From NCBI GenBank assembly GCA_963514005.1, contig OY740796.1, positions 46,872,001 through 46,936,000 on the forward strand: DNA of 64,000 nucleotides. The letters run 5' to 3'. Source of the DNA: Raja brachyura (taxonomy: Eukaryota). Below the pieces are notes generated by a model. That model worked only from the letters and a program-made list of their open reading frames with translations. It was not told where the DNA came from and ran no database searches. Within the stretch, counting starts at the first letter, position 1. The number at the start of each line of letters is the position of its first letter. Below are positions 19,366-23,076 of the stretch, piece by piece. The translations under genes and the position numbers were made by a program.

Positions 19366-19522
19366 CGGAAGGAACTGTAGATGCTGGTTCAAACCGAAGA
19401 TATACACAAAAATCTGGAGCAGTGCAGTGGGACAGGCAGCATTTCTGGAGAGAAGGAATGGGTGACGTTTTGAGTCAAGACCCTCATTCAGTCTGAAGAA
19501 GGGTCTCGACCCGAAACGTCAC
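19366..19522. mobile_element. Penelope-type short palindromic insertion with hammerhead motif
   Basis: Flanked by direct repeat tattttttcc(cccc)atgtgt at 19350-19365 and 19523-19542; inverted arms around ttcagtctgaa. Confidence 0.75.
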
Positions 19523-19523
19523 T
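19490..19523 (+). ncRNA. Minimal type I hammerhead ribozyme-like motif
   Basis: agt-CTGAAGA-a-gggtc-tc-gaccc-GAAA-cGTC-act: core boxes, stem II, palindromic ACGT stem III, GUC site. Confidence 0.6.
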
Positions 19524-21423
19524 ATTTTTTCCCCCCATGTGTGCTTCCTGGCCTGCTGAATGTTTGAATGATTTTTGTTTCACTTTGCTATTTTGCAAAT
19601 TAATATGAATTATAGGATGTACAGTCTTTTCAACAGGAAATTAAATTCAGTTTCATTTTTAGTGAGGTTTTTTATACTGATTCATTTTGTGTATGATTAA
19701 TACTAATGTTTTCATTCTTACCTGCATTTAAAAAAAAATCATTAGCTAGTCTAGAAGATGGATAGCCTTCCAGATTAGATAGAATTTTGGACCAGATCAA
19801 ATTCCGAATCAAGCTTGAGTCCCAGAATAACTTTATAAATCCCATGTTTGGGGCAGACCAAACATTGCCCATGAGGAAACTAAGCCGCCATTTCAGCCAC
19901 ATTCGTATTCATATTTCATTTTGATTATGCCAACATTTTGGCCCATTGAGGCTATGCAAACTCACGGAACAATCTCTTCAATCCCATTCCGTAACCTTCT
20001 TTCACTGTAGCTCATTCTCATTCATAGCAAAATCCTGATTTTCTCCCAAGTCATGGATTTTCCTTCACTCCGAGTTGCAATCGGGCTCCCAACAATAGGA
20101 GTACAATCTCCATGTATGAACTTTATTTTTGGGATCAGCAGAGTTCAGCAGTTTGCAAAACTTCTTACTGCATTTCATTCAAGATCCCTTACCATTTCTT
20201 GATATTAAGGCAAACGTTTCATTTTTATCTGGTTTGCATACCTCCACTTTCTTTCAAAACACTCTGCCTGGCCTGTGGTAAAGCAGGCAACATTCTTGGT
20301 GTTCACTCAAATGAAGTATGGGTCTTTTTAAAAGTCAATAAATTCAATGTCTTATTACATTTGGTTTCCAGGTGAAGGGATTATTTTTTGACAGCTGTCC
20401 TACTGTTCTAACTATTTATTTGAGTGGATATTCTGTTTTTACAGAGTGCAGCAGTCAATACTATTACTTTGCCAGTGTGTGTGCGTTGATATTTTATTAG
20501 ACCTGTCATTAAAAATCCTTTGCAGGCAGCATTATTGAATTATGCTAAATCTTTCAAGTGGAACAGAGTCTGAATCAAAGCAATTGACCTGCCCTTGAAT
20601 GGAGTATATTGATTTTAAAATTAATTGTGACATAAATGTGATCAGTATGTTTGATCTGAGCCTGAAGACTTTCCCCAACAAGCAATATGTTCCAGTCAAA
20701 GTTCAATATAACACATATAATCACCTCAGATGTGATTGAGATCCGTTCATCTTAATGAATTGCACTTCTAACAATTTCATTTATATCCTGAATTAATTAT
20801 ATTTATTTGAAAGGAAGTTGTTGACTTTTCAATGAATTTAACATTTCTCCAAATATCCCAGTGAGAAACTTTCTATGTATTTTGTTTTTGCATTTTGTCT
20901 ATTTTTTAAACGTATTTGTTTATGATTGTTGGTATTGCTTGCGATGAATCAGATGGCTGGCTTTTTTCTCGCCTGGGCCTACTTGATGTCACAAATTCCT
21001 TCCTCAGTTAATAGAGATGTAAATTTAAACCTTTTTAAAAAAATATAACCCAAAAGTTAGATGGGTGGGCCATGATTTTCTTTGACCCTCCTTATCCATG
21101 TGTGCAGGCATGCTGATGGCAAATTCTTGTTTAGGAGTAAAAATTGCCAGTGTAACATCAAGTTGGCCGTTACTCCCCAACTCTGTTGTCTTGACTGAGC
21201 TAGATCTTGGGCCAGTGTTAAAATGGTCCTGGATAATTAAAGACTGGGCTCTGCTATATGGACATTAGTGTGCACATATTTATTCGTACACATGGATGCA
21301 CACAAGTTTTCGTGTTCCCCTTTGTTTTCCTGTCTCTTCCTCCCCCCCCCCCCCACCCACCCTCATCCTAATTGTCAGTTTCTAGAGTGATTTTTTTTCA
21401 CTTGTTTTTTTCTCCTTTCACAG

Positions 21424-21561
21424 ACATCACAACAAAATCCGCACCATTGAGGCAAATCATTTGAAGCTTTATGAGTCCCTAGAAACATTGGATCTATCCT
21501 ACAATGAAATAACTGAAATCCGAAATAATTGTTTCCCACAGCATCTCAAACTTAAAGACTT
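21424..21561 (+). CDS. LRIG1: LRIG1 exon 4 (HHNKIRTIEANHLKLYESLETLDLSYNEITEIRNNCFPQHLKLKDL)
   Basis: polypyrimidine tract + cacag acceptor, gtaagt donor, 138 nt, two LRRs. Confidence 0.95.
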
Positions 21562-22635
21562 GTAAGTATTGTATTCCATGTTTAAAACATTGAACAAGGG
21601 TTAGGAGAGCCGTTTCTGTTACTTTTATTAAGAAACAAAATCAATGGTGCAGTTTAATTCCTTGTTTACACAACATTTCAATGACCAGCCTGATTTTGAA
21701 AGTAGGTTGGCACACTGTTCTGTCTCAGTTAAAACCACAAATTTGAGTTGGTGTGAAATGTATTTATTTTGTAGACCTGAGATTTATAGCACAGAACGGG
21801 CATCGCACCTATGTGCGGTCAAGTGAAGACTGATTGGACTGTTTCCGTATTTTGACTCTTGGCCTGTAGCTTTGTAAACCTAGCCACTTTAATGACTTTC
21901 CTGATGTTTTATAAATGTCGTAAGCAATGTAATAATTGGATAATCCCTTGAGGAAATGTTAAAATATAATTATTAAGTAGGGCACTAAAGATAATTCACT
22001 CTCACTTTGAACAAGTTCCGTGCAAATTATTACATCCAATCGAGAAGACATCCAGGCCATTCCTCGATGTCTCACCTAGAAGGTGCTATTCCCAACACTG
22101 TAGTACTCAGAATTATACTGGAGTGTGAATCCAAATGTATTTGGTGCTAGAGTGGGCATTCAACCTGCGGATTAACATGTATTGATTTTTAATATAATTA
22201 AGATTTGCTGGAAAGATAAATATGTGAAGCAGTGGGAGAAACAGGATCTTTAGAAGAGAGGAGAGCAGTTTCAACTTTTTCTCTGTAGAGTCAGCAAGTC
22301 TATGATGCACCCTCTGTGCTTTAAACCTTTTTGGTTTGTTAGATTGTTTGTTAGAAACAAAATTGTCTCAAGATAACATTTGGCAATCTGACATTTATTT
22401 CATAATAACTTAATGATTCACTAGCTCTTTATTTTAAAAAAAACATCCTTTGTTAAATACAATTTTATTTCTTTGTTCACAGATTTGATTCTAATTGATT
22501 TTGTCGTAGAATAAAACAGCATAAAGTATGACACTAAAATAAATGTTCTCTACTATGGTTTATATCTGTATAATCTCTCTGTTTCTTGTGAGGCTGATAA
22601 AACCTATTGTAATTTGCAAATCTACATTCTTGTAG

Positions 22636-22779
22636 ATATCTGGGTAATAACCGAATAAATATTGTGGAACCTGGCACATTTGATAATTTGTCGAGCACCT
22701 TACAAGTTCTTCGGCTAAGCAAAAATCGAATTTCGCACCTGCCTGTTAAGGTCTTCAAGCTACCACATTTGGTGCAACT
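22636..22779 (+). CDS. LRIG1: LRIG1 exon 5 ([48 protein letters not shown])
   Basis: ttgtag acceptor, gtgagt donor, 144 nt. Confidence 0.95.
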
Positions 22780-22973
22780 GTGAGTACTTTTTTCAAGAAC
22801 TTAAATTAGTCATTTGCCTGGGATTGTTGCACGGGTTGCTTAATTAAGGGTGTAATTCTTCACTCTTCCAGTGCATAATATGCCAGTATAGTTTGCCAAA
22901 GATACAGTACAGAACTTGCTTACAGATGCCAGAATTTGTGGCTAGCAGCAAAGCAGTGAAGCATTGACGCAAT

Positions 22974-23076
22974 TAACTTCAGTCTGAAGAAGGGTTTCGA
23001 CCCGAAACGTCACCTATTCCTTCGCTCCATAGATGCTGCCTCACCCGCTGAGTTTCTCCAGCATTTTTGCTTACCT
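22974..23076 (+). mobile_element. Penelope-type short insertion with hammerhead motif
   Basis: 10-bp direct repeat ttgacgcaat at 22964-22973 and 23077-23086. Confidence 0.75.
22981..23014 (+). ncRNA. Minimal type I hammerhead ribozyme-like motif
   Basis: agt-CTGAAGA-a-gggt-ttcg-accc-GAAA-cGTC-acc. Confidence 0.6.

What the first reader, a model, noticed from the sequence alone, without database searches (positions are those of the whole stretch)
19490..23014. Minimal hammerhead-ribozyme cores in sense orientation inside LRIG1 introns 3 and 5
Seen: two copies, agtCTGAAGAagggtctcgacccGAAAcGTCact (19490-19523) and agtCTGAAGAagggtttcgacccGAAAcGTCacc (22981-23014). Both have the hammerhead boxes CUGANGA and GAAA, a GC-rich stem II, a self-complementary ACGU in place of stem III, and a GUC cleavage triplet, with one extra A after the CUGAAGA box. 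Established: Penelope-like retroelements carry such minimal type I hammerheads in their pseudo-LTRs, which cleave poorly as monomers and better as dimers through the palindromic stem III. Inference: both copies are on the LRIG1 pre-mRNA strand 3.5 kb apart, so they could in principle pair and cut the nascent transcript. More broadly, this abundant repeat may be an overlooked ribozyme-bearing retroelement family in cartilaginous fish. Stem I is only 2-3 bp, so activity is uncertain.
Basis: partly seen in the sequence, partly recalled or inferred. Interest (0 to 1): 0.75.

Follow-up and report, generated by a model that had tools for sequence, protein, structure and literature searches.

The report
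Penelope-type hammerhead relics in skate introns
The two self-cutting-RNA (hammerhead) motifs are really there, but they lie in short insertions of a very abundant repeat that is likely the broken tail end of a Penelope-like jumping gene, a kind already described, and they are predicted not to cut the host LRIG1 transcript, so this is an ordinary feature.

Summary
Both motifs are at the stated coordinates on the LRIG strand and match the published minimal hammerhead (min-HHR) of Penelope-like elements, extra A included. They are parts of retro-insertions. Copy 2 is a 103-nt insertion with a 10-nt target-site duplication (TSD). Copy 1 is the inverted 5' arm of a 157-nt ANTISENSE insertion, and its third helix-I pair comes from the target site. 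Six of 11 family insertions tested have 10-14-nt TSDs. One carries an ORF end and a C/T-rich stretch before the decayed motif. Read depth is about 10^5 times the flanks in 4 of 4 related organisms. The dimer idea is not supported: copy 1 is predicted buried in a fold-back hairpin (23-27 kcal/mol to open), the same antisense arm could alternatively pair with copy 2, the ACGU duplex gives only -1.7 kcal/mol, and cores decay like tails (22% vs 26%, p=0.51). No RT or GIY-YIG protein was retrieved, so Penelope membership rests on architecture. The scan reported this kind at least 11 times before on other cartilaginous-fish DNA. Verdict: new member of a known kind, low interest.

The parts
19350..19365 (.). 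Left target-site duplication of insertion 1
   Evidence: 10-nt exact repeat with 19523-19532, longer if a C-run expansion is allowed
19366..19491 (-). Main body of insertion 1, antisense to LRIG: decayed hammerhead (3 of 11 core positions changed) plus about 98-nt tail
19493..19522 (+).
   Evidence: fold-back hairpin 19440-19545 at -47.8 kcal/mol, z -6.1
19523..19542 (.). Right target-site duplication of insertion 1; supplies the third helix-I base pair of copy 1
22964..22973 (.). Left 10-nt target-site duplication of insertion 2
22974..23076 (+).
23077..23086 (.). Right 10-nt target-site duplication of insertion 2
59821..60327 (-). Longest family insertion in the window: 11-nt TSDs (59821-59831, 60317-60327), 10-codon ORF end and stop (60319-60287), C/T-rich stretch interrupted by a SINE piece, decayed hammerhead, about 104-nt tail
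1817..1996 (-). Family insertion with inverted 5' arm (decayed core) and 14-nt TSD
43983..44199 (-). Family insertion with 5' inversion, near-intact core lacking C3 and U4, 14-nt TSD
27414..27476 (+). Tail-only family insertion with 10-nt TSD
781..936 (.). Inverted tail-only family insertion; 14-nt flanking repeat found post hoc
55796..55920 (-). Family copy with full tail and truncated, decayed core; no TSD found
5797..5895 (-). Decayed family copy (3 of 11 core changes); no TSD found
19070..19144 (+). LRIG exon (75 nt) upstream of insertion 1
21424..21561 (+). LRIG exon (138 nt) between the two insertions
22636..22779 (+). LRIG exon (144 nt) between the two insertions

Best explanation
The two motifs are minimal type I hammerhead cores inside short insertions flanked by target-site duplications, likely the 5'-truncated 3' ends of a very abundant Penelope-like retrotransposon, and they are predicted to be inert passengers in the LRIG introns. 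Shown: motif anatomy, TSDs, 5' truncation and inversion, two classes of 3' end, abundance, one copy carrying an ORF end. Inferred mechanism: the element's endonuclease nicks AT-rich DNA with a 10-14-nt stagger; its RT starts inside the element RNA at one of two sites about 60-65 or 95-105 nt downstream of the hammerhead cut site; synthesis usually stops early, often just past the hammerhead, where a small palindrome centred on 19492 could let the cDNA fold back and give a head-to-head inversion. In the parent element the hammerhead would act as a dimer or with the element's protein. After insertion the copies decay neutrally. In LRIG pre-mRNA the antisense arm is transcribed first and is predicted to capture copy 1, or alternatively copy 2, so both cores are unlikely to be free together.
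For: Anatomy equals the consensus of Fig. S3 in PMC4209133, with the extra nucleotide after A9, G10.1-C11.1, palindromic 15.2-16.2 and U-rich 5' flank; listed examples have 2-3-bp helix I. Copy 1 passes the published descriptor, copy 2 only with helix I relaxed to 2 bp. TSDs of 10-14 nt in 6 of 11 elements versus 0.7% of 1984 random position pairs; all six contain ATT or AAT, and the anole Poseidon protein prefers ATT. 5' inversions at 4 insertions and opposite-strand joints at 19490/22981 in 8-14 contigs in each of 4 runs; inverted truncated copies are typical of PLEs. 3' ends fall at 60-65 nt (2 copies) and 95-105 nt (5 copies) after the cut, like the optional 30-40-nt PLE tail. One TSD-bounded copy runs ORF end, C/T-rich stretch, hammerhead, tail; database protein P0011 reads a conserved segment, a low-complexity stretch and the hammerhead-plus-tail in the same order. 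Depth 1.2-4.7 million over the motif bins versus 6-40 in most unique bins (the tool warns this is no copy number). Core mismatch 20 of 90 versus tail 136 of 524, p=0.51. Opening cost 23-27 kcal/mol for copy 1 and about 6 for copy 2.
Against: No RT or GIY-YIG domain was linked by any database hit: 3 homolog searches and 1 HMMER search returned only off-frame translations and Pfam found no such domain in 28 sequences. The ORF end is 10 codons and its likeness to a GIY-YIG C-terminus is recalled, not tested. The other-frame coding signal was significant in 1 of 4 pairs (11 of 12 changes at codon position 2, p=0.003; the others 6 of 11, 7 of 12, 5 of 9) and a tail control also leaned that way (5 of 10, 9 of 15, 11 of 17). 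Element ends for the TSD test were set by eye, four of them after the repeats were noticed. Both cores are perfectly intact, and contigs of 4 relatives (1.3-5.1% other letters) end inside both cores, so the insertions are shared and selection on them is not excluded. Folding numbers are predictions.
Confidence: 0.85

Rival explanations
1. One reading: the two sense cores pair through ACGU across 3.5 kb, form a dimeric hammerhead and cut nascent LRIG1 RNA.
For: Both cores are intact and in sense; both insertions appear shared with 4 relatives; dimer cleavage is documented for PLE min-HHRs; an intronic ribozyme can tune its host mRNA (CPEB3, abstract).
Against: P(helix II) of copy 1 is 0.00 in all four contexts folded, opening cost 23-27 kcal/mol; antisense arm with copy 2 gives -126 kcal/mol against -1.7 for ACGU/ACGU (no loop penalty). 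P(helix I) is 0.00 for both. Engineered dimers 20 nt apart cleave only weakly; the anole Poseidon hammerhead shows no cleavage without protein and no RNA-seq ends at its site; 8 of 9 Xenopus dimers did not cleave. Two exons lie between the copies.
Confidence: 0.02
2. The repeat is a non-autonomous, SINE-like or retrozyme-like derivative of a PLE pseudo-LTR that spread as a short unit of its own, rather than truncated ends of the full element.
For: Most window copies begin within about 10 nt of the hammerhead; two tail subtypes exist; a preprint derives vertebrate retrozymes from pLTRs.
Against: 5' ends vary from inside the tail to inside the ORF end; 459-863 contigs per listed site continue 5' with pyrimidine-rich sequence of median 95-196 nt, at low agreement 0.38-0.41; no tandem array of the unit is among the families shown.
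Confidence: 0.07
3. The palindromic copies are a MITE or other DNA transposon and the hammerhead likeness is chance.
For: Locus 1 and the copies at 781-936 and 1817-1996 have inverted arms.
Against: Arms are unequal and break at different points, TSD length varies 10-14 nt, non-inverted copies carry the same TSD type, and the motif matches every position of the min-HHR consensus.
Confidence: 0.02
4. The unit is the 3' tail of a LINE or SINE (CR1, L2, RTE or Tx1 type) and not of a PLE.
For: Variable TSDs and 5' truncation or inversion are shared by all target-primed elements; no PLE protein was retrieved.
Against: No poly-A or microsatellite 3' end in 7 ends inspected; two 3' end classes about 35-40 nt apart; min-HHRs are a PLE hallmark.
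Confidence: 0.03
5. Not exclusive of the best explanation: any effect on the host comes from long-range pairing of the antisense arm (19408-19498) with insertion 2 (22977-23067) around the 138- and 144-nt exons, favouring back-splicing, in-frame skipping of 282 nt or A-to-I editing, with no catalysis.
For: 91-nt inverted pair, 78% complementary; predicted duplex -126 kcal/mol; exon positions; analogy to inverted Alu pairs (own knowledge).
Against: The local hairpin at 19440-19545 forms first and competes; such pairs must be common with a repeat this abundant; no RNA data were laid.
Confidence: 0.08

Closest known systems
Minimal hammerheads (min-HHR) in pseudo-LTRs of metazoan Penelope-like elements (Cervera and de la Pena 2014, PMC4209133)
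   Same: CUGANGA, extra nucleotide, G10.1-C11.1, short helix II, GAAA, palindromic C-G, UH; U-rich 5' flank; mostly single copies from truncated elements; opposite-strand pairs close together. Acropora Neptune and Culex entries of Fig. S3 have nearly the same layout.
   Different: Host lineage not in Fig. S3 or Table S1. Helix I appears to be only 2 bp across the family, below the 3-bp minimum of the published descriptor. Abundance appears far above the 4,000-9,000 motifs counted in coelacanth and Xenopus, though my measure is not comparable.
Poseidon element of Anolis carolinensis, PAc (Frangieh et al. 2024, PMC11167929)
   Same: Hammerhead close to the insertion end, two alternative ends defining a tail, AT-rich ATT-containing targets.
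   Different: In PAc the ORF starts inside the hammerhead. Here one tail frame is open for 34-44 codons in three copies but no long protein starting with it was found. Clade (Poseidon or Neptune) not determined.
Non-LTR retrozymes of vertebrates (bioRxiv 10.64898/2026.07.22.740005)
   Same: Type I hammerheads derived from PLE pseudo-LTRs; reported in one chondrichthyan.
   Different: Retrozymes are head-to-tail tandem arrays; these are dispersed single or head-to-head insertions.
Conserved intronic hammerheads of amniotes (RECK, CTCL, DTNB; passages of PMC6155905)
   Same: Type I hammerhead in an intron of a host gene.
   Different: Those have full helices with tertiary contacts and are deeply conserved single loci; these are minimal motifs in a mass repeat with no sign of selection in the window.

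Membership tests
PLE minimal hammerhead (min-HHR) | CUGANGA and GAAA-N-N-U-H catalytic boxes | tested here: met
   Both copies
PLE minimal hammerhead (min-HHR) | Extra nucleotide between 9 and 10.1; G10.1-C11.1; helix II of 3-7 bp | tested here: met
   Extra A, 4-bp helix, 4-nt loop (criteria)
PLE minimal hammerhead (min-HHR) | Palindromic 15.1-16.1 in place of helix III | tested here: met
   ACGU in both
PLE minimal hammerhead (min-HHR) | Helix I of at least 3 bp (published descriptor) | tested here: inconclusive
   Copy 1 meets it through a target-site base, copy 2 has 2 bp; the paper's Fig. S3 itself lists 2-bp examples
PLE minimal hammerhead (min-HHR) | Covariation in helices across families | not tested
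   Too few intact copies in the window; collection scans returned no relative
PLE minimal hammerhead (min-HHR) | Self-cleavage as dimer or with protein | not testable with these tools
   Needs an assay; no raw RNA reads were listed
Penelope-like element (EN+) | ORF with telomerase-like RT and C-terminal GIY-YIG endonuclease upstream of the pLTR | tested here: inconclusive
   10-codon ORF end in one insertion and off-frame database proteins; no domain hit
Penelope-like element (EN+) | 5' truncation, often with an adjacent inverted truncated copy | tested here: met
   criterion
Penelope-like element (EN+) | Optional 30-40-nt 3' tail, no poly-A | tested here: met
   Ends at 60-65 nt (2 copies) and 95-105 nt (5 copies) after the cut, 7 ends examined
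Penelope-like element (EN+) | Variable target-site duplication at AT-rich targets | tested here: met
   6 of 11, 10-14 nt; null 0.7%
Penelope-like element (EN+) | Partial tandem forming two pseudo-LTRs around an ORF | not testable with these tools
   No whole genome held; none in the window
Non-LTR retrozyme | Head-to-tail tandem units each with a hammerhead | tested here: not met
   Copies are dispersed or head-to-head
MITE / DNA transposon | Fixed terminal inverted repeats and fixed-length TSD | tested here: not met
   Unequal arms, TSD 10-14 nt, non-inverted copies
Domesticated intronic hammerhead | Core conserved above background at orthologous sites | tested here: inconclusive
   Insertions appear shared in 4 of 4 relatives but core letters of the orthologues could not be read; no core bias among window paralogues

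The most novel reading that the evidence does not exclude
Skate genomes hold on the order of 10^5 copies of a Penelope-type hammerhead with a 2-bp helix I that published descriptors miss, and the intact sense-strand copies in host introns, such as 22984-23011, are cut when the element's protein or a second copy in trans stabilises them, making a genome-wide, conditionally active layer of intronic self-cleavage.
Probability: 0.04. Interest if true: 0.7.

Novelty: new member of a known kind. Interest (0 to 1): 0.12.

Why it matters
As an ordinary PLE relic it matters little: it extends a class described in 2014 to a lineage missing from that survey and shows that a 2-bp helix I would hide most copies from the published descriptor. 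It would matter if intact sense copies cut host pre-mRNA, since a repeat this abundant would touch many genes; nothing found here points that way, and this locus is a poor candidate because one core is predicted locked in a hairpin.

Tried and rejected
Whole-genome count: no genome held. Rfam: no hammerhead model matched, 4 unrelated weak hits. Collection scans for relatives: viral 0, metagenome 0 and 1, prokaryote genomes 0; the one hit, L001, lies in what reads as an archaeal ribosomal-protein gene cluster and was dropped as chance. Idea that the PLE ORF starts in the open tail frame, as in PAc: 10 hits among 127 candidates, all chimeric gene predictions of 104-297 aa, two named Leucoraja erinacea, none with RT or GIY-YIG; not supported, weak search. 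Attempts to retrieve an in-frame PLE protein through P0004, P0011 and alignment A3 gave 6, 2 and 0 hits, none with a Pfam RT or GIY-YIG domain. Pfam on 15 of 74 window ORFs found only a LINE-end match. Codon-position test: 1 of 4 pairs significant. No RNA holder was listed among 21 runs; this is no evidence on expression. Read laying used contigs only, so RNA ends could not be seen, and 294 difference rows were not shown, so orthologous core letters were not read. TSD search failed for 5 of 11 elements, one recovered post hoc. Lunse et al. 2017 was not held and is known only through a review. Preprint supplements were closed and may list the chondrichthyan families; supplementary file 1 of PMC4209133 was unreadable. 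Literature searches for a chondrichthyan hammerhead report found only the two preprints cited; most subscription journals and Repbase/Dfam are not searchable here.
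Full report
OBSERVATION. The two strings are present as written. Each reads CUGAAGA, an extra A, a 4-bp helix II closed by G-C with a 4-nt loop, GAAA, CGU, C; the predicted cuts follow 19520 and 23011. 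A structure descriptor finds these two and nothing else in 64 kb on both strands; 2 of 200 dinucleotide shuffles gave one hit and none gave two. Rfam has no matching hammerhead model. The host gene is on the + strand: exons at 17708-17779, 19070-19144, 21424-21561, 22636-22779 and 24381-24524, with LRIG1 as best single-stretch PDB match. The numbering as introns 3 and 5 follows exon sizes recalled from human LRIG1; LRIG2/3 were not compared. The repeat also occurs in two predicted Leucoraja erinacea proteins, so the host is probably a skate or close relative (inference).

WHAT THE MOTIFS BELONG TO. Both are the 5' part of a repeat unit of about 135 nt, with 15 pieces aligned from the window on both strands. 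Copy 2 is a 103-nt insertion (22974-23076) between 10-nt direct repeats. Copy 1 is not an independent sense insertion: it is the inverted arm of a 157-nt insertion (19366-19522) whose body lies antisense to the gene, with the fold-back centre at 19492. Six of 11 elements tested have 10-14-nt flanking repeats against 0.7% of 1984 random position pairs. I set the ends by eye, four after noticing the repeats; a seventh TSD was found post hoc. All six contain ATT or AAT. Seven 3' ends fall in two groups, 60-65 nt (2) and 95-105 nt (5) after the cut, without poly-A. The longest insertion (59832-60316, minus strand, 11-nt TSD) runs: ten codons and a stop, a C/T-rich stretch with a SINE piece, a decayed hammerhead, the tail.

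ABUNDANCE AND SHARING. Contig sets of 4 related organisms (4 of 21 runs listed) were laid on 19300-23150. 94,848-153,131 contigs were laid per run. Depth in the two motif bins was 1.2-4.7 million against 6-40 in most unique bins; the tool warns this is no copy number, so I take it only as an order of magnitude near 10^5. Long contigs with 1.3-5.1% other letters run from 19494-19498 to 23001-23004, ending inside both cores in 4 of 4 runs, so both insertions appear older than these species splits. No listed contig bridges either insertion, and the orthologous core letters could not be read. Other genomic copies continue 5' with pyrimidine-rich sequence (459-863 contigs per listed site, agreement 0.38-0.41) and 3' of the cut with ACC, which gives a 2-bp helix I for the family as sampled by likeness to the window. 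Opposite-strand joints at the same palindrome occur in 8-14 contigs per run, so the inversion point recurs.

LINK TO A PENELOPE ORF. Not closed. Database protein P0011 reads a conserved segment, a low-complexity stretch of about 74 residues and then the hammerhead-plus-tail in one spurious frame; P0004, P0012 and P0013 share the segment. Differences between P0004 and P0011 sit at codon position 2 in 11 of 12 unambiguous cases (p=0.003), as expected if the segment is coding in another frame, but three other pairs were not significant and the tail control leaned the same way. The residue sets allowed in that frame and the window's ORF end resemble the end of a GIY-YIG domain by recall only. No search returned an RT or GIY-YIG domain.

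CAN THE PAIR CUT LRIG PRE-mRNA? Predictions say no. Region 19440-19545 folds into one hairpin at -47.8 kcal/mol, z -6.1, 0 of 200 shuffles. P(helix II) of copy 1 is 0.00 with flanks of 30-300 nt, and freeing its core costs 23-27 kcal/mol; copy 2 forms helix II (0.35-0.86) but costs about 6 kcal/mol to open; P(helix I) is 0.00 for both. The ACGU duplex that would join them is worth -1.7 kcal/mol, while the antisense arm could pair with insertion 2 at -126 kcal/mol without loop penalty. One arm can thus block either core. Among nine other pieces the core differs from copy 2 at 20 of 90 sites and the tail at 136 of 524 (p=0.51; copy 1 left out because it was picked for being intact; tail counts include subfamily differences). 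Only 2 of 11 pieces that reach the core keep it whole. Published data agree: monomers do not cleave and close dimers cleave weakly; the anole hammerhead needs protein, is dispensable for insertion in vitro and shows no RNA-seq ends; 8 of 9 frog dimers did not cleave. Against this: both cores are perfect and shared among relatives, and no RNA data could be examined.

MECHANISM. Shown: anatomy, TSDs, truncation, inversion, two end classes, abundance. Inferred: target-primed insertion by a Penelope-type RT/endonuclease starting at two internal sites downstream of the hammerhead, early termination, fold-back at the palindrome just 5' of C3, then neutral decay.

COMPARISON WITH WHAT IS KNOWN. Copy 1 passes its descriptor; copy 2 needs helix I relaxed to 2 bp. 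PMC8557442 (passages) describes inverted truncated copies and the 30-40-bp tail. PMC11167929 (parts 1-2 of 4) explains the tail. bioRxiv 10.64898/2026.07.22.740005 (parts 1-3 of 5; supplements closed) reports hammerhead tandem repeats in one chondrichthyan. bioRxiv 10.1101/443036 (two passages) reports expanded Penelope-like elements in whale shark introns. PMC6765202 and PMC6155905 were read in passages, PMC10919898 as abstract. Lunse et al. 2017 was not held. Searches found no paper describing this skate family's hammerhead. Earlier notes of this scan reach the same reading on other cartilaginous-fish DNA (3 shown, 8 of 9 shown); my reading was recorded before I saw them and they are not counted as support.

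VERDICT. Real motifs, correct class, ordinary meaning. It works like a PLE min-HHR in anatomy and is filed as a likely member (0.85), with the ORF link open. The host-cleavage reading is given 0.02. Interest 0.12; new member of a known kind.

Noticed in passing
window 19408-19498 and 22977-23067: The antisense arm and insertion 2 form a 91-nt, 78% inverted pair around two exons totalling 282 nt (in frame), an arrangement like inverted Alu pairs around circular-RNA exons.
   Followed up: partly
window 49851-49945: Older, decayed relative of the repeat with a 5-bp helix I around a mutated core, suggesting earlier subfamilies had a longer helix I.
   Followed up: partly
window 19363-19491, 55787-55918 (minus) and 22984-23085 (plus): One reading frame through the hammerhead and tail is open for 34-44 codons in three copies; it appears inside predicted Leucoraja erinacea beta-arrestin-like and NmrA-like proteins, probably as mis-predicted or exonised repeat.
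   Followed up: partly
window 15019-15086: Near-perfect 68-nt AT-rich hairpin giving weak miRNA-family matches below gathering score; probably a small inverted repeat element.
   Followed up: no
window 29521-29820 and 31296-31595: 300-nt direct repeat at 99% identity, 1775 nt apart; possibly LTR-like ends of a young element.
   Followed up: no
window 56703-56930 and 57828-58055: 228-nt inverted arms at 94% complementarity, 897 nt apart.
   Followed up: no
window 25861-26433, 45693-45981, 57067-57343, 58171-58355, 60139-60685, 61787-61982, 62940-63025: Abundant SINE-like family with a tRNA-like end, mostly on the minus strand; resembles the elasmobranch HE1 SINE by recall.
   Followed up: no
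window 10171-10391: Tandem array of a 24-nt C/T-rich unit in the most GC-rich part of the first 20 kb.
   Followed up: no
window 2921-3421 and 32844-33335 (minus): LINE ORF2 3' remnants; the first matches Pfam ALKBH8_N (E 6e-11), the second has no Pfam hit.
   Followed up: no
window about 26660-26810: Run of 149 N, an assembly gap inside an intron.
   Followed up: no
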